From a virus, in UHGV virus genome UHGV-0315034: a DNA stretch of 14,940 nt; one strand, written 5' to 3'. The notes beneath the pieces were generated by a model that did not search any database, was not told where the DNA came from, and saw nothing but the letters and a program-made list of their open reading frames with translations. Position 1 is the first letter of the stretch. Every line of letters begins with the position of its first letter. This document shows positions 2,474 through 12,902 of this stretch, one piece after another. A program made the translations under genes and the position numbers.

Positions 2474-2713
2474 GCTTCACCTCCGCAGAGGTCAAACGTT
2501 GGATGCAAGATATCGCAGGTGCATTTCTGCATCTGTGACTGGTTGAAAGGTGTTCTGATTGTCGTTTGCACTTTGAGTCCCCTCAAAGCGCAGAAGTCAC
2601 CGGAGTTGTTCAGGCTCCGATGACATGATTATGGCGAGTTGATTATGATGAATCAATAGGTTCTTATGTCAAATGGACACTAGATCCAAAGGAGGGTAAC
2701 AATTATCATAGCC

Positions 2714-2731
2714 AATGAGATTAATCTCATT
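2714..2731. promoter_or_regulatory. 18-bp perfect palindrome AATGAGATTAATCTCATT directly upstream of the 472-aa gene RBS
   Basis: Read directly; reverse complement identical. Followed by a T-run, the RBS AAGGA, then ATG 2749. Candidate operator or leader hairpin. Confidence 0.4.
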
Positions 2732-2748
2732 TTTAATAAGGAAATTTC

Positions 2749-4167
2749 ATGAAATATTTCTCAACTGGTTTTTATGTTTCAAACTCCACATCTCTAGCTG
2801 AGATCTTTAATGAATGTTTTTCTTGGGTAAACGACTCACCACATACAACTTTTATTCCAGCACAATTAGTATGTGATTATAAAAGCGAGGAGTACTTCAT
2901 AGAGTCTAAAAATGAAAGAATTGATATAATAACTTATAAAAACAAAGATACTAGTTTAGGCTGTTTTAGGTATTCGAAAATATCTGAGCCACACAAATGG
3001 GTAACAGATATTTCAATTAATAAAAATCTCAAAACTGATACCATGTGGATTCAGGTGGAATCTAGCGTTGTAAGCCAAGATGCAGCTTATCTAGCCCCGC
3101 AACCTAAGAAACCATTAGTTGTTATGAGATTGATTGATAAATTTCCTGGTGGTCTTGATGATATTTTCAAGGTGTCAGTCGAACCTCATTCCTTAGATGA
3201 TACTGATGAACATTTAAATATAGCAGCTAAAGTTATAAATGGTGAAACTGACAACAGACTACCAATAATATACGTTAGCTCCAAGTATTTTTTTAATGAA
3301 CATGCTCACAATATCATCCCAGAACGCCTTGCAAGAAAGGTATGCGGATTAGCACATGTATTAATTGAGCCTAGCAATAGACTATTTTCTATTAAGCTAA
3401 AAAATGAGACAAATGCTAAAAATGCCTATGCTGGTGCTGTTGGTATCTATTGGCCACGGGGTCAAAATATCAGTTTTTATCGCCGTGGTGAGAAAACCGC
3501 AAAAGAATTTGAAGATGAGTTATTTGATGATGTTGTAAGAGCTACGACTACAATGGCTCCTGTCTCAGATAGTGGATGGAGTGAGATACAAACCAGAAAA
3601 ACGAAAGACTCTATTAACTCACTCAAAGAAAGAGGAGAATACACACGCGAACTGATGGCGCTTTACGAAGCCGATAATGTTGCGAAAGATGACCAAATAG
3701 AAGATCTTAAGCATAAGATCTCCTCTTTAGAGCACAGAGTACGCACTCTTCAATCACAAGCTTCAGCCCAAGGAAGCATTGCGCTTAATGCTGGTGAAGA
3801 GACTGACTTTTTTGATGGAGAAATCAAAAATATAATTATTGACGCACTAAAAACTGCCATAAAAAATAAAAATGAATTTGGTAGAAGCTACCATATCTTA
3901 TCATCCCTAATTGCCAATAATGAATACAATAAAGAAACCGAGAGTCGCCGCCAATTACTTAAAAGGACTTTAACAGGTTACAGAAGCATGGATAGCGCAA
4001 CACAAAGAAATTTAAAGGACTTAGGTTTCAGTGCGTCAAGCGATGGAAAACACTGGAAGTTAACATATAATGAAGACCCTCGATATTCCTATATTTTACC
4101 TAAAACAGGAAGTGACCACAGAGGTTCTTTAAATGCTATCTCGGATATAGCAAATATTATTTTCTAA
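2749..4167 (+). CDS. Hypothetical 472-aa protein of unknown function in an AT-rich island (candidate exclusion/defence moron)
   Basis: Long ORF on the strand opposite to the pR operon; AAGGA 8-9 nt upstream of ATG; tandem stops TAATAA. Lys/Asn-rich, reflecting low GC. Central coiled-coil-like segment DQIEDLKHKISSLEHRVRTLQSQ. No Walker A or other motif I can recognise. Confidence 0.6.
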   Translation: MKYFSTGFYVSNSTSLAEIFNECFSWVNDSPHTTFIPAQLVCDYKSEEYFIESKNERIDIITYKNKDTSLGCFRYSKISEPHKWVTDISINKNLKTDTMWIQVESSVVSQDAAYLAPQPKKPLVVMRLIDKFPGGLDDIFKVSVEPHSLDDTDEHLNIAAKVINGETDNRLPIIYVSSKYFFNEHAHNIIPERLARKVCGLAHVLIEPSNRLFSIKLKNETNAKNAYAGAVGIYWPRGQNISFYRRGEKTAKEFEDELFDDVVRATTTMAPVSDSGWSEIQTRKTKDSINSLKERGEYTRELMALYEADNVAKDDQIEDLKHKISSLEHRVRTLQSQASAQGSIALNAGEETDFFDGEIKNIIIDALKTAIKNKNEFGRSYHILSSLIANNEYNKETESRRQLLKRTLTGYRSMDSATQRNLKDLGFSASSDGKHWKLTYNEDPRYSYILPKTGSDHRGSLNAISDIANIIF

Positions 4168-4175
4168 TAAATTTC

Positions 4176-4201
4176 AATAGCACTCACAAATGAGTGCTAT
4201 T
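4176..4201. terminator. Perfect hairpin (11-bp stem AATAGCACTCA / TGAGTGCTATT, loop CAAA) between convergent genes
   Basis: Read directly; lies 9 nt after the 472-aa stop and 17 nt downstream of the 84-aa ORF stop. Flanking U-tracts are weak, so terminator function is uncertain. Confidence 0.45.
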
Positions 4202-4218
4202 GTTGCCACTGAATTATT

Positions 4219-4473
4219 CTATTTAAATTCAACTTTTATCCCTTTGTTTAGCAGGGCATCAGAAACTGCCTTTTTTGTAACATTTATCCCTGCAAGCAAT
4301 GCTTTATGCATTGGTCCCTTAAAAATCTCTACTTCTTCTTCAGTGAGTTTAGGCAATGTAATATAAATAACATCTTTCATCTGCTTGTTTTTATAGCATG
4401 AGCTTCTTGTGTGCTTACAATCGATATTTTCTTTATTTCCCAAAACATCATCCCCTTTATAATTCAGTTCCAC
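4219..4473 (-). CDS. Hypothetical small protein (84 aa), convergent with the 472-aa gene
   Basis: ORF-track ORF with a GTG start and no convincing Shine-Dalgarno; internal ATG at 4380. AT-rich context makes chance ORFs likely. Sits 64 bp downstream of ren on the same strand. Confidence 0.3.
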   Translation of the reverse strand: MELNYKGDDVLGNKENIDCKHTRSSCYKNKQMKDVIYITLPKLTEEEVEIFKGPMHKALLAGINVTKKAVSDALLNKGIKVEFK

Positions 4474-4537
4474 ACATCAATTATTTAGTTATCACGAATG
4501 TCGTAAAACTAAAATTAGTAACAATAATTGCTCATAC

Positions 4538-5523: not shown

Positions 5524-6539
5524 AAATCCACCCCGTAAATCCAGTCAGTGTTTGTCAGGTCGAGTTTTGATTTTCCGGCTGTCACGCCAGCCTGTTGCTT
5601 GTTACGGTTGATTTCGAGTTGGGTCCACTTGTCGCGGAGTTTGGCCGGACTTAGCACGTTACCGGACCAGAAGTTGTCCTGGCATGCCCAGCGGAACAGC
5701 ACGCACATGTCGCGGTGGTTACGGCCGTCACGTTCACGCATCAGGCGGATATCGTTAGCCCACCCTGCAAAATTCGGTTTTCTGGCTGATGGCGCGATGG
5801 TCTTCACCATGTCAAACATCCACTCTGCGGCGGTCAGGTCTTCTGCTGTCCCCCACTTGCTGCCACTCTGAATTGCAGCATCCGGTTTAACCACAGGAAG
5901 ATCGTCTTCTGGTTGGTCAGAGGATTCGCCAGAATTCTCGGACGAAAAAGGTTTTATATTGTCTTTTGTTAGTTTGTCTTTTGTGTTTACCTGATTCGGG
6001 TAAACGCCTTTACCTGATTTGGGTAAACTTTTCTTACCTGATTCAGGTAAATTTACCTCTTTCAGGTAAACTTTATTTTTCTTACCTGATTCGGGTAATG
6101 TTGACCATTCACTGACCACATTATTAATGCCTATATTCCGCCCGCTCTGAATAAAAATCCCACGCTTTACCAGAGCACTTTTTGCAGCAGAACACTTGTG
6201 CGGCAATATCCCGGTCAACTCGGAAAGTTGCTCGTTGCTCACCCAATCCAGTTTTTTATTAAAGCCATATGTTTTGCGCATGACAGCCAGGAAGACCAGA
6301 AGCTGGTGCTGTGTTAATCCGGCCAGCATTACAGCTTCCAGCAACTCATTTGCAATGCGCGTATAACCATCATCGAGATCTGCCACGCGCGGCTCCTTTT
6401 GTGCCGCATCCGGCACAGGAAAATTGAATATCTCAGCAGTGTTTGCCATAATTCCTCCCGCAATGAGTGTGTTACGATTTGCACCTGAAAGTCGGTTCTG
6501 TTCCCGCAGACCGACTTTCGCCATTTTTGAACCTGTCAT
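5520..6539 (-). CDS. O: Replication initiator O-like protein (diverged iteron-binding N-domain, lambda-like C-terminus)
   Basis: N-terminal ADLDDGYTRIANELLEA...LRKTYG matches the lambda O N-domain family. Iteron array lies inside the gene (encoded as repeated PESGKK). C-terminus ...TDWIYGVDL is lambda-O-like. ATGA overlap with the upstream gene. Confidence 0.85.
   Translation of the reverse strand: MTGSKMAKVGLREQNRLSGANRNTLIAGGIMANTAEIFNFPVPDAAQKEPRVADLDDGYTRIANELLEAVMLAGLTQHQLLVFLAVMRKTYGFNKKLDWVSNEQLSELTGILPHKCSAAKSALVKRGIFIQSGRNIGINNVVSEWSTLPESGKKNKVYLKEVNLPESGKKSLPKSGKGVYPNQVNTKDKLTKDNIKPFSSENSGESSDQPEDDLPVVKPDAAIQSGSKWGTAEDLTAAEWMFDMVKTIAPSARKPNFAGWANDIRLMRERDGRNHRDMCVLFRWACQDNFWSGNVLSPAKLRDKWTQLEINRNKQQAGVTAGKSKLDLTNTDWIYGVDL
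5988..6100. repeat. Origin of replication: five ~18-bp iterons (consensus TACCTGATTCGGGTAAAC) with adjacent AT-rich tract (5941..5987)
   Basis: Read directly: iterons at 5988..6005, 6011..6028, 6035..6052, 6054..6071, 6083..6100; the third contains the perfect palindrome TACCTGA-T-TCAGGTA. Same architecture as lambda ori inside O, but a different sequence from the lambda iterons. Confidence 0.8.
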
Positions 6540-7075
6540 ATTGCCCCCAACATGGTGGTAACCATCGCCATCAATGGACCAGCCAGATCCGGGTCCACAC
6601 GAAACATCGACACAATACCTTCACTCATCTCCTTCAGTTTCTGGTGGCGTGGTGCGTTGAGAATGACAGCCTGTTTTGCCTCACTGAGTTCCTTTTCCAT
6701 TTCAGCCAACCGAGTCATGAAGCTATCCTGCTCAACCAGGTAACCGCGATATTCCAGCGGTAGTACCGCCAGAATTGCCGGGGTCAGTTCACGCACGTTA
6801 TTTCGGTATTTTTCAGAATCGAATTTGTTATCGAGGAAGCGGAACAGCTTCTGGCGTGCACGGCTGACATCATCAGGGAAATCGATGGTGCCGCCGCCCT
6901 GCTCCCGATACTCATTCACAATGAGTGCGGCAACAACATCCTGATTATCTGCAGCCGACCAGGCGCGGACGGCATCACGGATTTTTTCGTGGCCTGGCAC
7001 CTGTTTTGTTTGAGAACGATTTATCACCGCAGTCGGGCTAAATCCGCTAGTCTGTTGGTATGTAAGTGGTTGCAT
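6536..7075 (-). CDS. Regulatory protein in the cII position (YdaT / CII-like family suspected)
   Basis: 179-aa ORF directly downstream of the cro-like gene and upstream of O, with RBS AAGGAG 6 nt before ATG. Much longer than lambda CII (97 aa); position mirrors ydaS-ydaT in Rac-type immunity regions. Family assignment is from recall only. Confidence 0.45.
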   Translation of the reverse strand: MQPLTYQQTSGFSPTAVINRSQTKQVPGHEKIRDAVRAWSAADNQDVVAALIVNEYREQGGGTIDFPDDVSRARQKLFRFLDNKFDSEKYRNNVRELTPAILAVLPLEYRGYLVEQDSFMTRLAEMEKELSEAKQAVILNAPRHQKLKEMSEGIVSMFRVDPDLAGPLMAMVTTMLGAI

Positions 7076-7120
7076 AATTGACTCCTTTAGTTTGAATTGA
7101 CTGTTAAGTTGATTGCTTAT

Positions 7121-7132
7121 TGTTAAAGAGCG
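7121..7132 (-). promoter_or_regulatory. boxA-like element (CGCTCTTTAACA on the minus strand), candidate nutR
   Basis: Read directly between the cro stop and the next gene start; lambda boxA is CGCTCTTACACA. No convincing boxB hairpin seen downstream. Confidence 0.4.
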
Positions 7133-7144
7133 TGAAATGGAAAT

Positions 7145-7375
7145 TTAAGCTGCGTTCTTTTCGGTGTGTGGAAACAACTTCGGAAGATCCGGGCGAATCT
7201 GGTATGCCTTCACTACTCCACCAGTAGCCGTAACAATGCTGCCGACATGTTCAGGGGATACCTTTGCTTTGTTGTGAAGCCACTTATAGACGGCCTGCTG
7301 TGAAACTTCGCAGGCAGCGCCCAGTTTCTTTTGTGAACCAACGATATTGATCGCTGTTTTGATAGCTGGGTTCAT
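7145..7375 (-). CDS. cro: Cro-like HTH repressor (YdaS-like)
   Basis: 76 aa with HTH segment KKLGAACEVSQQAVYKW; divergent from the cI-like gene; strong RBS GGAGG 5 nt before ATG. Confidence 0.8.
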   Translation of the reverse strand: MNPAIKTAINIVGSQKKLGAACEVSQQAVYKWLHNKAKVSPEHVGSIVTATGGVVKAYQIRPDLPKLFPHTEKNAA

Positions 7376-7479
7376 AACAACCTCCGTGGTTAATTCGAAT
7401 CAAGATTAAAACTATGGTTGTTTTTAGTCAACAACCATTTTCGTTTGATAGAATAAAACCTTGGTTGTACATTTGGACT
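7376..7479. promoter_or_regulatory. Divergent promoter/operator region (pR/pRM equivalent) with operator palindrome ATGGTTGTT-N7-AACAACCAT at 7414..7438
   Basis: Intergenic between divergent cro-like and cI-like genes; 9-bp perfect inverted arms read directly; extra GTTGT half-site at 7462..7468. Confidence 0.6.
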
Positions 7480-8169
7480 ATGAAAACAACACTCTCAGAA
7501 AGACTTAAAGAAGCCAGATTAGCGCGAGGCCTTACACAAAAGGCGCTTGGGGATTTGGTCGGGGTTAGCCAAGCTGCTATTCAGAAAATCGAAACAGGGA
7601 AAGCTAACCAAACAACTAAAATCGTGGAGATCGCGAACGCTTTGGGTGTGCGCGCAGAATGGTTATCTTCTGGCGTTGGAAATATGTCAGACAGTACAGT
7701 GCAACCAATACCATCAACTGTCAGCCATTCCAAATACTTTAAGATTGACGTTCTTGATATAGAAGTGAGTGCCGGGCCGGGAGTCATCAACCGTGAGTTT
7801 GTAGAAGTTCTACGCTCGGTTGAGTACTCGTTTGACGATGCTCGTCACATGTTCGATGGTAGGAAGGCAGAAAATATCCGCATCATTAACGTACGCGGTG
7901 ACAGCATGTCAGGAACGATCGAACCAGGTGATCTGCTGTTCGTTGATATCACGGTTAAATCTTTCGACGGTGATGGCATCTATGCGTTTCTGTACGACGA
8001 CACCGCCCATGTAAAGCGCCTGCAAATGATGAAGGATAAGCTGCTGGTTATCTCTGATAACAAGAGCTACTCACCGTGGGACCCGATCGAGAAAGACGAG
8101 ATGAACCGGGTGTTTATCTTCGGGAAAGTTATTGGGAGCATGCCGCAAACATATAGGAAGCATGGTTAG
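7480..8169 (+). CDS. cI: CI-type prophage repressor (N-terminal HTH plus C-terminal LexA/S24-like autocleavage domain)
   Basis: HTH LSERLKEARLARGLTQKALGDLVGVSQAAIQKIETGK; C-terminal RGDSMSGTIEPGDLLFVD...VKR matches the S24 peptidase Ser/Lys motif region. Start chosen at ATG 7480; the ORF-track start at 7414 lies inside the operator palindrome. Confidence 0.85.
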   Translation: MKTTLSERLKEARLARGLTQKALGDLVGVSQAAIQKIETGKANQTTKIVEIANALGVRAEWLSSGVGNMSDSTVQPIPSTVSHSKYFKIDVLDIEVSAGPGVINREFVEVLRSVEYSFDDARHMFDGRKAENIRIINVRGDSMSGTIEPGDLLFVDITVKSFDGDGIYAFLYDDTAHVKRLQMMKDKLLVISDNKSYSPWDPIEKDEMNRVFIFGKVIGSMPQTYRKHG

Positions 8170-8240: not shown

Positions 8241-9152
8241 ATGAGCCATCAGTCCGCCCACCAACAAGAAATGTCTTTATTTCCTGTAAAAGAAGTTGAA
8301 GTAAACGGTGTACAAATGGGTGTTCTCAATGATGGAACTCCATTTTTGAGTCTCCGTGGATTATCTAGGTTATGTGGGGTCGATCACACCACACTTTTAC
8401 CTCTCACCACCAACTGGTCAATAGAAAAGAATAAACCCAGAGGAAGGAGAATTGCGGAGCTTCTTTCAGAGAATGGTTTTAAAGGTGATCAATTATATTC
8501 CGTTGTCGGCGGAGGCGCATTTGGTGATACACATGCCTATCCAGATGCCGTATGCATGGCAATTCTTGAATATTATGCTTTCGATGCCACACAGGTTGAT
8601 AGCACTATAGCCAGGAAAAATTACCGCCTATTAGCACGTCAAACACTTCGAGACTATATATACAAAAGTGTAGGTATTGACCCGAGAAATCCAATTAGTG
8701 GCGCCTGGAAATGTTTTCAAGAGCGAATATTGCTTAATGACAAAATTCCTGCAGGTTTCTTCAGTGTTTTTAGAGAGATGGTCGATATCACAGTTCCACT
8801 TATCAATGCAGGATTTGAGCTTGGCCCAAAAACAGTACCTGATATTAGTGTGGGTGGACGATGGGCAATCCACTGGAAGAAAAACAATCTTAGTGAAAAA
8901 TATGGCGATGTGAAAAAATATCCACATGAATATCCAGATTGGTTTCCTCAAAGTAAAGCAGGAAAAGTTCCTGCCAATATTTATCCGGAAGAGGCTTTAG
9001 GTGAATTTCGCAGATGGCTAAGAGAAGAATACATTCCAAAGGGTTTCAAAGATTATCTTGCTGATAAAGTTCAGCAGAAAGTAATTGAAAATACTAAGGC
9101 TATTGAAGTTTTAGAAAATTTGCAGCGCCCAAATCTCCCTAAGGCTCGTTAA
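8241..9152 (+). CDS. 303-aa protein in the rex slot downstream of cI; KilA-N/Bro-N-like N-terminus; possible BstA-family abortive-infection protein
   Basis: Co-oriented 72 bp downstream of cI and followed by a clean terminator. N-terminal VNGVQMGVLNDGTPFLSLRGLSRLCGVDHTTL resembles KilA-N-type DNA-binding domains. Size and position match what I recall of BstA; not lambda RexA by recall. AT-richer than flanking phage genes. Confidence 0.45.
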   Translation: MSHQSAHQQEMSLFPVKEVEVNGVQMGVLNDGTPFLSLRGLSRLCGVDHTTLLPLTTNWSIEKNKPRGRRIAELLSENGFKGDQLYSVVGGGAFGDTHAYPDAVCMAILEYYAFDATQVDSTIARKNYRLLARQTLRDYIYKSVGIDPRNPISGAWKCFQERILLNDKIPAGFFSVFREMVDITVPLINAGFELGPKTVPDISVGGRWAIHWKKNNLSEKYGDVKKYPHEYPDWFPQSKAGKVPANIYPEEALGEFRRWLREEYIPKGFKDYLADKVQQKVIENTKAIEVLENLQRPNLPKAR

Positions 9153-9912: not shown

Positions 9913-10209
9913 ATGAACGCTTATTACATTCAGGATCGTCTTGAGGCTCAGAGCTGGGCACGTCACTACCAGCTGATCGCCCGTGAAGAGAAAGAGGCAG
10001 AACTGGCAGACGACATGGAAAAAGGTCTTCCACAGCACCTGTTTGAATCACTCTGCATCGATCATTTGCAACGCCACGGGGCCAGCAAAAAAGCCATTAC
10101 TCGTGCATTTGATGACGATGTTGAGTTTCAGGAGCGTATGGCAGAACACATCCGGTACATGGTTGAAACCATTGCTCACCACCAGGTTGATATTGATTCA
10201 GAGGTATAA
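9913..10209 (+). CDS. gam: Gam (RecBCD inhibitor), short-form length
   Basis: [20 protein letters not shown]...[10 protein letters not shown] matches the lambda Gam short form as recalled; AGGAG RBS; in-frame TAA at 9856..9858 excludes a lambda-style long form from an ATG. Confidence 0.9.
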
Positions 10210-10214
10210 AGCGG

Positions 10215-11000
10215 ATGAGTACAGCACTCGCAACGCTGGCAGGGAAGCTGGCTGAACGTGTCGGCATGGATTCTGTCGACCCACAGGAACTGATCACCAC
10301 TCTTCGCCAGACGGCATTTAAAGGTGATGCCAGCGATGCGCAGTTCATCGCATTGTTGATCGTCGCCAACCAGTACGGCCTTAATCCGTGGACGAAAGAA
10401 ATTTACGCCTTCCCTGATAAGCAGAACGGCATCGTTCCGGTGGTGGGCGTTGATGGCTGGTCCCGCATCATCAATGAAAACCAGCAGTTTGATGGCATGG
10501 ACTTTGAGCAGGACAATGAATCCTGTACATGCCGGATTTACCGCAAGGACCGTAATCATCCGATCTGCGTTACCGAATGGATGGATGAATGCCGCCGCGA
10601 ACCATTCAAAACTCGCGAAGGCAGAGAAATCACGGGGCCGTGGCAGTCGCATCCCAAACGGATGTTACGGCATAAAGCCATGATTCAGTGTGCCCGTCTG
10701 GCCTTCGGATTTGCTGGTATCTATGACAAGGATGAAGCCGAGCGCATTGTCGAAAATACTGCATACACTGCAGAACGTCAGCCAGAACGCGACATCACTC
10801 CGGTTAACGATGAAACCATGCAGGAGATTAACACTCTGCTGATCGCCCTGGATAAAACATGGGATGACGACTTATTGCCGCTCTGTTCCCAGATATTTCG
10901 CCGCGACATTCGTGCATCGTCAGAACTGACACAGGCCGAAGCAGTGAAAGCTCTTGGATTCCTGAAACAAAAAGCCACTGAGCAGAAGGTGGCAGCATGA
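10215..11000 (+). CDS. bet: Bet (Red-beta single-strand annealing recombinase)
   Basis: 261 aa; [59 protein letters not shown]... matches lambda Bet as recalled. Confidence 0.95.
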
Positions 11001-11677
11001 CACCGGACATTATCCTGCAGCGTACCGGGATCGACGTGAGAGCTGTCGAGCAGGGGGATGATGCGTGGCACAAATTACGGCTCGGCGTCATCACCGCTTC
11101 AGAAGTTCACAATGTGATAGCAAAACCCCGCTCCGGAAAAAAGTGGCCTGACATGAAAATGTCCTACTTCCACACCCTGCTGGCTGAGGTTTGCACCGGT
11201 GTGGCTCCGGAAGTTAATGCTAAGGCGCTGGCATGGGGAAAACAGTACGAGAACGACGCCAGAACTCTGTTTGAATTCACTTCCGGCGTGAATGTTACTG
11301 AATCCCCGATCATCTATCGCGACGAAAGTATGCGTACCGCCTGCTCTCCCGATGGTTTATGCAGTGACGGCAATGGCCTTGAGCTGAAATGCCCGTTTAC
11401 CTCCCGGGATTTCATGAAATTCCGGCTCGGTGGTTTCGAGGCCATAAAGTCGGCTTACATGGCCCAGGTGCAGTACAGCATGTGGGTGACGCGAAAAGAT
11501 GCCTGGTACTTTGCCAACTATGACCCACGAATGAAGCGTGAAGGCCTGCATTATGTCGTGGTTGAGCGGGATGAAAAGTACATGGCGAATTTTGACGAGA
11601 TGGTGCCGGAGTTCATCGAAAAAATGGACGAGGCACTGGCTGAAATTGGTTTTGTATTTGGGGAGCAATGGCGATGA
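10997..11677 (+). CDS. exo: Exo (lambda exonuclease, Red-alpha)
   Basis: 226 aa; [65 protein letters not shown]... matches lambda Exo as recalled; ATGA overlap with bet. Confidence 0.95.
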
Positions 11678-11832
11678 AGCATCCTCGCGATAATATCCGG
11701 GTAGGCGCGATCACTTTCATCTACTCCGTTACAAAGCGAGGCTGGGTATTTCCCGGCCTTTCTGTTATCAGAAATCCACTGAAAGCACAGCGGCTGGCTG
11801 AGGAGATAAATAATAAACGGGAGAGTGTATGA
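11674..11832 (+). CDS. Small ORF (52 aa) translationally coupled to exo and to the downstream gene
   Basis: Own translation: [52 protein letters not shown]; ATGA overlaps at both ends. Below the ORF-track size cut-off. Occupies the position of lambda orf60a. Confidence 0.45.
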
Positions 11833-12581
11833 TTCATTTTCACGGTGGTCCAATAACTCCCGATACCTGTGCGTTGAAAGCCTGGAAAGGCAGACACGCA
11901 TTCATCAGTTTTGCTAATCCAGCTCAGATTGATCTGGCTTCCGAAGTCACCCAATCATTTGCTCTTGATAATGGTGCATTCACATTCTGGACAAAAAACA
12001 AGGCCGTAGACTGGAATGAATATTACAGATTTGTTGAACGCTGGGGTAATCACCCTCGTTTCTCATTCGCGGTTATCCCGGATGTTATCGGCGGAACCAG
12101 TGAAGAGAATGACGCCCTGATTGCGGCATGGCCTCACGGTAAATTTATTGGTGCTCCGGTGTGGCACATGAACGAACCAGATGAGCGATTTATTCGTCTG
12201 TGCCATGAGTTTCCCCGCGTCTGCATCGGCTCGATGGGGGAATACGATGCAAAACGACCGAGAGCGTGTCGGGCTAAACTACGCGATCTTATACGTCATG
12301 TTGTAGATCAGTACGGCTACCCAATCACCAAGATTCATGGGTTACGGATGTTAAATAAAGACATTTTTACTCATGTACCGCTTTCGTCTGCAGACAGCAC
12401 GAACGTCGCAAGAAATATAGGCATCGACAAATCCTGGGTAGGTTCGCCATATGCTCCCGCAAGTAAAGAAACCCGTACGCAAGTTCTTGTGGAACGCATT
12501 GAATCATTCAACAGTGCCAGTTCACTTAATTACAACGCTGAACGGGACGTCTTTACCCCTCAACTGGCATTCGAAGTGTGA
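11829..12581 (+). CDS. 250-aa protein with TGT-fold (tRNA-guanine transglycosylase-like) motifs; candidate DpdA-type DNA guanine transglycosylase
   Basis: By eye against recalled E. coli Tgt: ALDNGAF (residues ~45-51) vs TDSGGFQ catalytic-Asp motif; CIGSMGEY (~132-139) vs GGLAVGE; SSADSTNVARN (~186-196) vs FDCVMPTRNARN, with similar spacing. No CxCxxC zinc subdomain. Not computed. Confidence 0.5.
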   Translation: MIHFHGGPITPDTCALKAWKGRHAFISFANPAQIDLASEVTQSFALDNGAFTFWTKNKAVDWNEYYRFVERWGNHPRFSFAVIPDVIGGTSEENDALIAAWPHGKFIGAPVWHMNEPDERFIRLCHEFPRVCIGSMGEYDAKRPRACRAKLRDLIRHVVDQYGYPITKIHGLRMLNKDIFTHVPLSSADSTNVARNIGIDKSWVGSPYAPASKETRTQVLVERIESFNSASSLNYNAERDVFTPQLAFEV

Positions 12582-12588
12582 GGCCAAT

Positions 12589-12804
12589 ATGACAATAGAA
12601 CATAATAACGCCCTTCGCAGCATAGCCCGTCAGGCTAATTCTGAAATCAAAAAAGCCAGACAGCAGTTTCCGGATAAAAACGTCGATGACATTTGCCGTA
12701 GCGTACTGAAGAAGCACCGCGAAACGGTAACGCTGATGGGATTCACACCGACTCATTTAAGCCTGGCGATCGGCATGTTAAACGGCGTCTTTAAGGAGCG
12801 ATGA
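12589..12804 (+). CDS. Hypothetical small protein (71 aa)
   Basis: ATG 12589 with GAGG 5 nt upstream; lies in the longer ORF-track frame 12451..12804, whose upstream part overlaps the preceding gene. Confidence 0.5.
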   Translation: MTIEHNNALRSIARQANSEIKKARQQFPDKNVDDICRSVLKKHRETVTLMGFTPTHLSLAIGMLNGVFKER

Positions 12805-12826
12805 ACATGAAAAGCAAAATCATCAG

Positions 12827-12850
12827 GGAGCTACAGGCTCCTTTTTTATT
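12827..12850 (+). terminator. Putative rho-independent terminator (stem GGAGC/GCTCC, loop TACAG, then TTTTTTATT)
   Basis: Read directly between the 71-aa gene and the TraR-like gene. Confidence 0.45.
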
Positions 12851-12902
12851 ATTCGCATTCACCCTCAAGCGTATTAACCAACAATTCAGGGATTAATGGA
12901 AG

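What the first reader, a model, noticed from the sequence alone, without database searches (positions are those of the whole stretch)
11829..12581. TGT-fold protein in the exo-xis region: candidate DpdA-like DNA guanine transglycosylase
The 250-aa product carries three motifs in the same order and roughly the same spacing as the catalytic core of bacterial tRNA-guanine transglycosylase: D-N-G-A-F (Tgt DSGGFQ, catalytic Asp), I-G-S-M-G-E (Tgt GGLAVGE), and A-D-S-T-N-V-A-R-N (Tgt FDCVMPTRNARN, second catalytic Asp). It lacks the C-terminal zinc subdomain. Short TGT paralogues in phages are DpdA enzymes that insert 7-deazaguanine bases into DNA. No queCDE or folE genes are in this window, so it would depend on host preQ0/preQ1. 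A solo dpdA in a lambdoid exo-xis region would imply anti-restriction DNA modification during lytic growth.
Basis: partly seen in the sequence, partly recalled or inferred. Interest (0 to 1): 0.65.

Follow-up and report, generated by a model that had tools for sequence, protein, structure and literature searches.

The report
Solo phage DpdA-like guanine transglycosylase gene
This prophage gene encodes a small barrel-shaped enzyme related to the phage enzymes that swap guanine in DNA for a 7-deazaguanine base; the identical protein was catalogued as a "DpdA-only" phage gene in 2019, so it is a correct call but not a discovery, and its activity is still untested.

Summary
It is 100% identical in protein to gp34 of Shigella phage SfI. 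RefSeq names that protein "queuine tRNA-ribosyltransferase", and Hutinet et al. 2019 list it among phages that encode only DpdA.

Pfam, NCBIfam and PDB sequence searches find nothing, but validated phage DpdAs fail those searches too. More sensitive tests agree:
- PHROG 887 matches at E 4e-99.
- A profile-profile comparison with the validated CAjan DpdA family gives 99% probability.
- A confident AlphaFold model (pLDDT 94.5) is an eight-stranded barrel.
- The catalytic Asp pair (D47, D189) and base-binding residues are conserved across the diverse relatives aligned here.

None of 80 related viral loci carries preQ0 genes, so a solo enzyme using host preQ0 is the best reading. No one has shown that this group modifies DNA. 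The prophage in this window appears deleted and defective.

Verdict: already known as a prediction. Interest is modest.

The parts
11829..12581 (+). dpdA-like ORF (250 aa plus stop): a singleton phage DpdA and TGT-fold TIM barrel
11819..11825 (+). Shine-Dalgarno-like GGGAGAG upstream of the ATG. The ATG at 11829 overlaps the TGA of the upstream DUF1317 gene, which suggests translational coupling.
   Evidence: Read directly from the sequence.
11964..11981 (+). Codons for L46-D47-N48-G49-A50-F51, at the end of strand beta-3. D47 is the predicted general acid/base (bDpdA D95, Tgt D89). F51 is the predicted gate residue (bDpdA F99).
   Evidence: D47 is invariant in A2 and in A3. Aligned with GDCGAF of 7ui4 and LDSGAF of CAjan DpdA. 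Roles are taken from PMC10164549.
12075..12095 (+). Codons for I83-P84-D85-V86-I87-G88-G89, after strand beta-4. D85 is the predicted base-recognition Asp (bDpdA D130, Tgt D143).
   Evidence: P84, D85, I87 and G89 are at least 90% conserved. Aligned with VLDGIG of CAjan and ALDVIG of Rinkes. The equivalence to D130 is inferred from position in the barrel.
12156..12176 (+). Codons for P110-V111-W112-H113-M114-N115-E116, at the end of strand beta-5. H113 is the predicted counterpart of bDpdA H181.
   Evidence: H113 is invariant in A3 and at least 90% conserved in A2. PVWH is identical in Rinkes DpdA.
12225..12242 (+). Codons for I133-G134-S135-M136-G137-E138, the loop after strand beta-6. This is the predicted pocket for the 7-substituent (bDpdA G206-G207-M208, Tgt GGLAVGE). 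The second Gly is Ser here.
   Evidence: G134 is invariant in A3. Aligned with MGGM of 7ui4. The role of the loop is taken from PMC10164549.
12330..12353 (+). Codons for K168-I169-H170-G171-L172-R173-M174-L175, strand beta-7. H170 is the predicted partner of the nucleophile (Cap10 H226). L172 is the predicted base-stacking residue (bDpdA L236).
   Evidence: H170 is invariant in A2 and A3. Aligned with VHLLG of 7ui4. The Cap10 D248/H226 pair is described in bioRxiv 2025.04.06.647259.
12390..12416 (+). Codons for A188-D189-S190-T191-N192-V193-A194-R195-N196, at the end of strand beta-8. D189 is the predicted covalent nucleophile (bDpdA D256, Tgt D264).
   Evidence: D189 and S190 are invariant in A3. 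Aligned with SIDST of 7ui4 and CDSS of CAjan.
9913..11832 (+). Upstream genes of the same early-left operon: gam (9913-10209), bet (10215-11000), exo (10997-11677) and DUF1317 (11668-11832).
   Evidence: Pfam Gam, RecT, YqaJ and DUF1317. No promoter-like site on the + strand between 9100 and 13700.
12589..12804 (+). Downstream 71-aa gene of unknown function (phrog_303). It is not a conserved partner of the dpdA-like gene.
   Evidence: PHROG hit. RefSeq annotation in E. coli. Different downstream genes in BTP1 and HK106.
12825..12853 (+). Terminator-like hairpin followed by a T run, closing this gene block
   Evidence: Consensus scan. This is a pattern match only.

Best explanation
The gene encodes a "singleton" phage DpdA. 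This is a minimal (beta/alpha)8 barrel of the tRNA-guanine transglycosylase superfamily, related to the DpdA1 enzymes of Queuovirinae and cluster-B mycobacteriophages.

It is transcribed with gam-bet-exo from the early-left (PL) operon, so it is made after induction or infection and not in the repressed lysogen.

By analogy with DpdA and TGT, the proposed mechanism is as follows. Asp189 attacks C1' of a target deoxyguanosine in duplex DNA, and guanine leaves with help from Asp47, giving a covalent enzyme-DNA intermediate. A free 7-deazaguanine base is held by Asp85, His113, the Gly134-Ser135 loop and Leu172/Phe51. It is deprotonated by Asp47 and attacks the intermediate to give modified DNA.

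Neither the phage nor its relatives carry folE or queCDE, so the base must come from the host queuosine pathway. The most likely base is preQ0. The expected result is sparse, motif-specific dPreQ0 (or a derivative) that blunts restriction.

Shown here: homology, fold, conserved catalytic residues, solo status, operon position and purifying selection. Inferred: the substrate, the DNA target, the level of modification and the benefit.
For: Identity and family:
- PHROG 887 "queuine tRNA-ribosyltransferase", E 4e-99.
- The protein is identical to SfI gp34. Hutinet 2019 lists it as a DpdA-only phage.
- BLASTP against Rinkes DpdA, which lies inside a queC-queD-queE-folE cluster, gives E 3e-11 with all motifs aligned.
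- BLASTP against the phage 7-11 protein gives 36% identity, E 1e-36. Phage 7-11 carried trace dADG in its DNA although it has no que genes.
- hhalign of the 85-sequence family profile against the CAjan DpdA1 profile gives Prob 99.0, E 8.6e-18. A CAjan delta-dpdA mutant loses dPreQ0.

Fold and active site:
- The AF2 model has pLDDT 94.5 and pTM 0.90, with eight alternating strands and helices.
- BFVD gives 29 hits at E<=1e-3. Nearly all the named ones are phage "queuine tRNA-ribosyltransferase".
- A combined profile aligns D47/F51, G134-S135, H170/L172 and D189 with D95/F99, G206-G207, H234/L236 and D256 of 7ui4. Mutation showed D95 and D256 to be essential.

Links to deazaguanine and DNA modification:
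- Relatives include fusions to QueD/PTPS and to Dam and N6/N4 DNA methyltransferases.
- Neighbours include a ParB-like gene in AH07 and a C5 DNA methylase in Epa33.

Feasibility and selection:
- Solo expression of 9g DpdA or nt-1 DpdA2 in E. coli puts host-derived preQ0 into DNA, and a queD deletion abolishes it.
- pN/pS is about 0.08-0.18.
Against: - No member of this gamma-proteobacterial singleton group has been shown to modify DNA. Hutinet 2019 explicitly leave open whether singletons have diverged in function.
- The singleton-carrying mycobacteriophage Orion has no modification, although its host makes no preQ0. Phage 7-11 has only 0.02% of its G modified.
- Two pocket residues differ from validated enzymes: Asn48 where TGT, DpdA1 and Cap10 have Ser (bDpdA has Cys), and Ser135 in place of the second Gly.
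- The 7ui4 sequence alignment is not significant on its own (E 0.099).
- Bacterial DpdA needs the ATPase DpdB, and no such partner is in the window.
- The prophage here has lost its late genes.
Confidence: 0.55

Rival explanations
1. The fold and chemistry are the same, but the specificity has diverged. The singleton group exchanges a different base (preQ1, CDG or another purine analogue), or acts on a different acceptor. The acceptor could be tRNA, host chromosomal DNA, or a base tethered to a protein as with CBASS Cap10. The biological role would then not be anti-restriction marking of phage DNA with preQ0.
For: - The singletons form their own clusters in the published similarity network, and the authors raise possible functional divergence.
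- Asn48 and Ser135 replace residues that contact the base or its 7-substituent.
- DpdA2 of VH7D prefers preQ1, so specificity does shift within the family.
- Phage 7-11 carries dADG rather than dPreQ0.
Against: - No Cap9/QueC-like gene or CD-NTase partner is in the window or in 80 related loci.
- Fusions and neighbours point to DNA: Dam, N6/N4 and C5 DNA methyltransferases and a ParB-like gene.
- The protein lacks the tRNA-binding C-terminal and zinc domains of TGT.
- Every DpdA tested so far inserts preQ0 at least to some extent.
Confidence: 0.27
2. The protein is conserved but does not detectably modify DNA in its natural hosts. It would be a DNA- or base-binding accessory protein of the exo-xis region, for example modulating recombination, replication or lysogeny.
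For: - Orion, a DpdA-only phage, has no modification.
- Genes of the exo-xis region are known to influence lysogenization and induction (titles and abstracts).
- No direct data exist for this group.
Against: - The full catalytic set (D47, D85, H113, H170, D189) is invariant or nearly invariant across the diverse relatives aligned here, under strong purifying selection. That pattern is hard to explain without catalysis.
- Orion's result is explained by its host lacking preQ0.
- E. coli makes preQ0, and other solo DpdAs use it.
Confidence: 0.13
3. The protein is an unrelated TIM-barrel enzyme, such as an aldolase or a PdxJ-like protein, and the TGT-like motifs are coincidental.
For: - Pfam TGT, NCBIfam and PDB sequence searches give no hit.
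- Foldseek on PDB returns generic TIM barrels with TM about 0.45.
Against: - hhalign to validated DpdA1 gives 99% probability.
- BLASTP to a DpdA embedded in a preQ0 cluster gives E 3e-11.
- BFVD hits are phage DpdA-type proteins.
- A relative is fused to QueD.
- Validated DpdAs also escape the Pfam and PDB sequence searches.
Confidence: 0.02

Closest known systems
Singleton phage DpdA of gamma-proteobacterial phages (Hutinet et al. 2019, group 3: SfI gp34 YP_009147480, HK106 gp29, BTP1 gp23, Salmonella phage 7-11, Vibrio phage Athena1)
   Same: The protein is identical to SfI gp34. It shares 67.6% identity with BTP1, about 37% with HK106 and 36% with 7-11. It holds the same position between the recombination genes and xis/int in SfI, BTP1 and HK106. 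No preQ0 genes are nearby.
   Different: There is no difference at the protein level. This copy sits in a prophage that has lost its late genes.
DpdA1 of Queuovirinae (CAjan gp35, 9g, Bas24) and of Rosebush-type mycobacteriophages (Rinkes gp3): validated or cluster-embedded preQ0 DNA transglycosylases
   Same: The barrel core is homologous (hhalign 99%; BLASTP E 3e-11 to Rinkes). The residues D, D, H, G, H and D-S are conserved. There is no zinc subdomain.
   Different: Identity is only 16-26%. The protein is 40-56 residues shorter. It has DNGAF rather than DSGAF/Y, and G-S rather than G-G after beta-6. It is not next to folE or queCDE (0 of 80 loci), whereas DpdA1 genes sit inside such clusters.
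Bacterial DpdA of the Dpd restriction-modification system (S. Montevideo, PDB 7UI4)
   Different: bDpdA is about 410 aa, with four insertions including a 128-residue Ins8 and a structural zinc site, and it needs the ParB-like ATPase DpdB. None of these features is present here.
tRNA-guanine transglycosylases (bacterial Tgt, archaeal ArcTGT, eukaryotic QTRT1; Pfam PF01702)
   Different: There is no Pfam TGT match, no N-terminal beta-sheet lid, no zinc subdomain and no tRNA-binding C-terminal domains. The likely substrate is DNA rather than tRNA.
Cap10 of type IV CBASS (PDB 9NTN)
   Different: Cap10 works with Cap9 (QueC-like) and a CD-NTase whose N-terminus carries the deazaguanine. No such partners occur here. 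Sequence identity is 9%.

Membership tests
TGT/DpdA superfamily | (beta/alpha)8 TIM-barrel catalytic domain, closest in structure to TGT/DpdA proteins | tested here: met
TGT/DpdA superfamily | General acid/base Asp at the end of beta-3, followed four residues later by an aromatic gate residue (bDpdA D95/F99; Tgt DSGGFQ) | tested here: met
   D47 is invariant and F51 is present. They align to GDCGAF of 7ui4 and LDSGAF of CAjan.
TGT/DpdA superfamily | Nucleophile Asp at the end of beta-8 (bDpdA D256; Tgt D264/D280) | tested here: met
   D189-S190 are invariant in A3 and align to IDST of 7ui4 and CDSS of CAjan. They lie at the end of strand 187-190.
TGT/DpdA superfamily | Base-recognition Asp after beta-4 and His/Gln after beta-5 (bDpdA D130, H181) | tested here: met
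   D85 is at least 90% conserved and H113 is invariant in A3. They align with the D and H of CAjan and Rinkes DpdA. Equivalence to the bDpdA residues is inferred from strand position.
TGT/DpdA superfamily | Gly-rich loop after beta-6 that binds the 7-substituent (bDpdA G206-G207-M208) | tested here: inconclusive
   G134 is invariant and aligns with G206, but the second position is Ser135 rather than Gly. The effect on specificity is unknown.
TGT/DpdA superfamily | Structural Zn2+ site in the C-terminal insertion (CxCxxC...H) | tested here: not met
   There is no Cys or His after D189. The site is also absent from validated CAjan DpdA1, whose Cys residues are at 82, 130, 176 and 205 only. The feature therefore defines TGT and bDpdA but not phage DpdA.
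Pfam TGT (PF01702) | Score above the Pfam gathering threshold | tested here: not met
   There is no hit at E<=10 for the protein and none at E<=1 for any of 85 relatives. The Rinkes and 7-11 DpdAs fail the same test, and CAjan-type DpdAs carry no precomputed Pfam domain.
Phage DpdA (DpdA1 and singleton clusters) | Significant sequence or profile similarity to experimentally validated phage DpdA | tested here: met
   hhalign gives Prob 99.0, E 8.6e-18 against the CAjan-type profile, and 98.4 against Rinkes. BLASTP gives E 3e-11 to Rinkes and 2e-4 to CAjan. PHROG 887 matches at E 4e-99.
Phage DpdA (DpdA1 and singleton clusters) | Genomic association with preQ0/G+ synthesis genes (folE, queD, queE, queC) | tested here: not met
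   None are in the window. None lie within 10 kb in any of 80 IMG/VR loci. This is what defines the published "singleton" subgroup. A distant relative is fused to QueD.
Phage DpdA (DpdA1 and singleton clusters) | Inserts a 7-deazaguanine base into DNA | not testable with these tools
   This needs LC-MS/MS or a guanine-exchange assay. The only data for a relative are trace dADG in phage 7-11 DNA.
Bacterial Dpd system DpdA | Partner ParB-like ATPase DpdB and the dpdC-K genes | tested here: not met
   No such genes are in the window. A ParB-like gene lies directly upstream in Pantoea phage AH07. A ParB-like gene occurs within 10 kb in 9 of 80 loci.
CBASS type IV Cap10 | Operon with Cap9 (QueC-like) and a CD-NTase | tested here: not met
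   No QueC-like or nucleotidyltransferase gene is in the window or the related loci.

The most novel reading that the evidence does not exclude
The enterobacterial singleton group, marked by Asn48 and Ser135 in the base pocket, may have a specificity that no tested DpdA shows. It could use a different host-derived base, or a different target such as host DNA or a tethered base as with Cap10. If so, many temperate lambdoid and P22-like phages (SfI, BTP1, HK106 and about 2% of complete E. coli genomes) would carry out an unrecognised modification during induction.
Probability: 0.15. Interest if true: 0.6.

Novelty: already known. Interest (0 to 1): 0.3.

Why it matters
If the enzyme is active, common temperate phages of E. 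coli, Shigella and Salmonella would place host-derived 7-deazaguanine in their DNA without carrying any synthesis genes. Examples are the serotype-converting phage SfI and BTP1 of invasive Salmonella ST313.

That would change how these phages meet restriction systems. It would also expose them to the recently described defences that target deazaguanine DNA, such as the Dag glycosylases and GrwAB.

The question of whether DpdA-only phages modify DNA has been open since 2019. It can be tested directly with this small gene. As a sequence finding it adds nothing new, because the same protein is already annotated and catalogued.

Tried and rejected
Searches that found nothing useful:
- Pfam, NCBIfam and PADLOC scans of the protein gave no hit.
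- phmmer and three profile searches against PDB sequences gave nothing significant. The combined profile reached only E 0.099 for 7ui4.
- Foldseek against PDB returned only generic TIM barrels at E about 0.01-0.1.
- hhalign against a single E. coli Tgt sequence found nothing. I did not build a TGT profile.
- Literature searches for tests of DpdA in temperate phages or prophages found none.

A model that had to be redone:
- The first AlphaFold run used a shallow alignment of 17 sequences and gave a poor model (pLDDT 57). It was replaced by the run on the 85-sequence alignment.

Ideas considered and rejected:
- An "eraser" or defence role, removing deazaguanines from competing phages. The gene lies in the repressed early-left operon with no promoter of its own. 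In addition, from my own knowledge of TGT chemistry, insertion of a 7-deazaguanine is effectively irreversible.
- A Cap10-like role. The partner genes are absent.
- The 117-aa ORF at 12451-12804, annotated in SfI as overlapping the 3' end. The phrog_303 match starts at residue 45, and RefSeq E. coli annotation starts the gene at the position equivalent to 12589.

Full report
**Observation.** The window holds an ATG ORF at 11829-12581 on the + strand, encoding 250 aa. Its start codon overlaps the stop codon of the upstream DUF1317 gene (gtATGA), and a GGGAGAG ribosome-binding sequence precedes it. The protein stops 61 residues after D189, and that tail has no Cys or His, so it cannot form the zinc subdomain of TGT.

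**Surroundings.** The gene lies in the early-left arm of a lambdoid prophage. The order is cI (7414-8169), a BstA defence gene (8241-9152), kil-like, gam, bet, exo, DUF1317, the target, a 71-aa gene of unknown function, a DksA/TraR-like gene, DUF4222, xis and int.
- No promoter-like site lies on the + strand between 9100 and 13700. A terminator-like hairpin follows at 12825. The gene should therefore be expressed with gam-bet-exo after induction or infection, and not in the repressed lysogen. This is an inference from lambda biology.
- No folE or queCDE gene is in the window.
- This prophage looks defective. Window 2150-7076 matches a relative in E. coli YZ22MPE54 at 99.2%, starting inside ybcN. 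Left of about 2150 the sequence runs straight into the DNA-circularisation and baseplate genes. The genes that lie between ybcN and the capsid gene in that relative (rusA, Q, lysis, terminase, portal, prohead protease) are absent from the window, and no head or tail-shaft gene is seen there either.

**Identity.** The DNA is 99.9% identical, and the protein 100% identical, to gp34 of Shigella phage SfI. RefSeq names that protein "queuine tRNA-ribosyltransferase". The same gene, at 99% identity or more, is in 100 of 5426 complete E. coli genomes, where PGAP calls it hypothetical. Hutinet et al. 2019 (PMC6884629) list SfI YP_009147480, HK106 and Vibrio phage Athena1 in Supplementary Data 1 among the 76 phages that "encode DpdA but no G+ or preQ0 biosynthesis protein". 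They say the modification status of these phages is hard to predict and that the singleton clusters may have diverged in function.

**Is it really a DpdA/TGT homologue?** Standard tests fail.
- There is no Pfam, NCBIfam or PADLOC hit.
- There is no PDB hit by phmmer or by family profiles.
- None of 85 diverse relatives hits Pfam TGT at E<=1.
- This failure is uninformative. The DpdA of mycobacteriophage Rinkes sits inside a queC-queD-queE-folE cluster, and it has no Pfam hit either. The experimentally validated CAjan DpdA and its relatives have no PDB hit and carry no precomputed Pfam domain.

More sensitive tests agree with one another.
- PHROG 887 matches at E 4e-99.
- BLASTP gives E 3e-11 to Rinkes DpdA, 1e-36 to the Salmonella phage 7-11 protein and 2e-4 to CAjan DpdA, with the motifs aligned.
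- An exhaustive HMMER search found 1609 representative clusters at E<=0.001.
- hhalign of an 85-sequence alignment of these clusters against a CAjan-type DpdA1 profile gives probability 99.0%, E 8.6e-18 over 156 columns. Against Rinkes DpdA alone it gives 98.4%.

**Structure.** A first model built from 17 close relatives was poor (pLDDT 57). With the 85-sequence alignment the model reached pLDDT 94.5 and pTM 0.90, with eight strands alternating with helices.
- Foldseek against PDB gave only generic TIM barrels.
- Among predicted viral structures, 29 matched at E<=0.001. Nearly all the named ones are phage "queuine tRNA-ribosyltransferase", and a Vibrio phage nt-1 protein follows at E 1.6e-3.

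**Active site.** The conserved residues all lie at or just after the C-terminal ends of the barrel strands: D47 (beta-3), D85 (beta-4), H113 (beta-5), G134 (beta-6), H170 and L172 (beta-7), and D189 (beta-8).
- In a combined alignment with CAjan-type, Rinkes and 7-11 DpdAs, the invariant columns are D47, A50, H113, G134, H170, D189 and S190.
- A profile of that alignment picks 7UI4 as its second hit. The E-value of 0.099 is not significant alone. It aligns DnGAF with GDCGAF (D95/F99), G-S with G206-G207, H-g-L with H234-L235-L236, and S-a-D-S with I-D256-S.
- Gedara et al. 2023 (PMC10164549) showed that D95 and D256 are essential. They assign D95 as general acid/base and D256 as nucleophile, with F99 and L236 sandwiching the base and the beta-6 Gly loop holding the 7-substituent.
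- In Cap10 the catalytic Asp pairs with a His (D248/H226), which matches D189/H170 here.
- There are two differences from validated enzymes. Asn48 stands where TGT, DpdA1 and Cap10 have Ser (bDpdA has Cys). Ser135 stands where they have the second Gly. Either could alter base specificity.
- The missing zinc site is not a mark against membership, because CAjan DpdA lacks it too.

**Context across the family.**
- In SfI, BTP1 and HK106 the gene holds the same place between the recombination genes and xis/int.
- None of 80 IMG/VR loci with relatives of at least 64% identity has a folE, queC, queD, queE or yhhQ homologue within 10 kb. Solo status is therefore a property of the group.
- Several links point to deazaguanine chemistry and to DNA. 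One distant relative is fused to a QueD/PTPS domain. Others are fused to Dam-type and N6/N4 DNA methyltransferases. Pantoea phage AH07 has a ParB-like gene directly upstream, recalling DpdB. Pseudomonas phage Epa33 has a C5 DNA methylase directly downstream.
- Synonymous sites between relatives are saturated (pS 0.80-0.89), while pN is 0.07-0.15, which indicates strong purifying selection.

**Mechanism proposed.** The protein is most likely a DNA guanine transglycosylase that uses the host's preQ0.
- This is feasible. 9g DpdA and nt-1 DpdA2 expressed alone in E. coli put host preQ0 into DNA at about 800-1600 per 10^6 nt, and a queD deletion abolishes it.
- The nearest experimental hint is phage 7-11. 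Its protein is 36% identical and has the same DNGAF motif. Its DNA carried 50 dADG per 10^6 nt although the phage has no que genes.
- Against this, no member of this group has been assayed, Orion (a mycobacterial singleton) has no modification, and the pocket differs at two positions.
- I give 0.55 to this mechanism, 0.27 to a diverged specificity or target, 0.13 to a role without detectable DNA modification, and 0.02 to an unrelated TIM barrel.

**Verdict.** The finding repeats an existing annotation and a published catalogue entry. It is ordinary as a sequence feature and leaves a modestly interesting, easily testable open question.

Noticed in passing
window 8241-9152 (+): A 303-aa gene directly downstream of the cI repressor encodes BstA, a prophage abortive-infection defence protein (PADLOC BstA E 7e-122; phrog_6287 E 7.5e-141). 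BstA was named in Salmonella phage BTP1, which also carries a homologue of the dpdA-like gene.
   Followed up: partly
window 2749-4167 (+), in the low-GC island at about 2500-4500: A 472-aa ORF lies in a stretch of 33-38% GC, against about 50% in the flanks. It has no Pfam hit and a weak match to the PADLOC candidate defence family HEC-07 (E 1e-9). It lies between the nin-region remnant and ren/P, and is probably a defence moron. The same gene is present in E. coli YZ22MPE54.
   Followed up: partly
window about 2150 (ORF 950-2473, - strand): This is a deletion junction. To the right of 2150 the sequence matches ybcN of a related prophage at 99%. To the left it runs into the DNA-circularisation and baseplate genes, giving a chimeric 507-aa ORF. 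The Q, lysis, terminase, portal and prohead-protease genes of the relative are missing, and no head or tail-shaft gene is seen in the window, so the prophage is probably defective.
   Followed up: partly
L010 2840-3847 (protein P0251); protein P0235: Distant relatives of the family occur as fusions. P0251 has an N-terminal QueD/6-pyruvoyl-tetrahydropterin synthase domain joined to the DpdA-like barrel. P0235 has a Dam-type N6-adenine DNA methyltransferase joined to the barrel. One member of alignment A2 carries an N6_N4 DNA methylase domain.
   Followed up: partly
L012 2682-4756 (Pantoea phage AH07); L013 6001-8830 (Pseudomonas phage Epa33): In AH07 a 440-aa ParB-like gene overlaps the start of the 67%-identical homologue, recalling the DpdA-DpdB pair of the bacterial Dpd system. 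In Epa33 a C5 cytosine DNA methylase directly follows the homologue. A ParB-like gene lies within 10 kb in 9 of 80 IMG/VR loci.
   Followed up: partly
window 12451-12804 versus 12589-12804 (+): The SfI record annotates a 117-aa ORF that overlaps the 3' end of the dpdA-like gene by 131 nt. The PHROG match begins at residue 45 of that ORF, and RefSeq E. coli annotation starts the gene at the position equivalent to 12589. The shorter, non-overlapping 71-aa gene is therefore more likely.
   Followed up: yes
window 6536-7375 (-): The immunity region uses YdaS-like (Cro position) and YdaT-like (cII position) proteins rather than lambda Cro and cII, as in Rac-type prophages. The attachment side (int, and tRNA-Thr next to proA in related genomes) matches the SfI/SfII/SfV integration site.
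   Followed up: no
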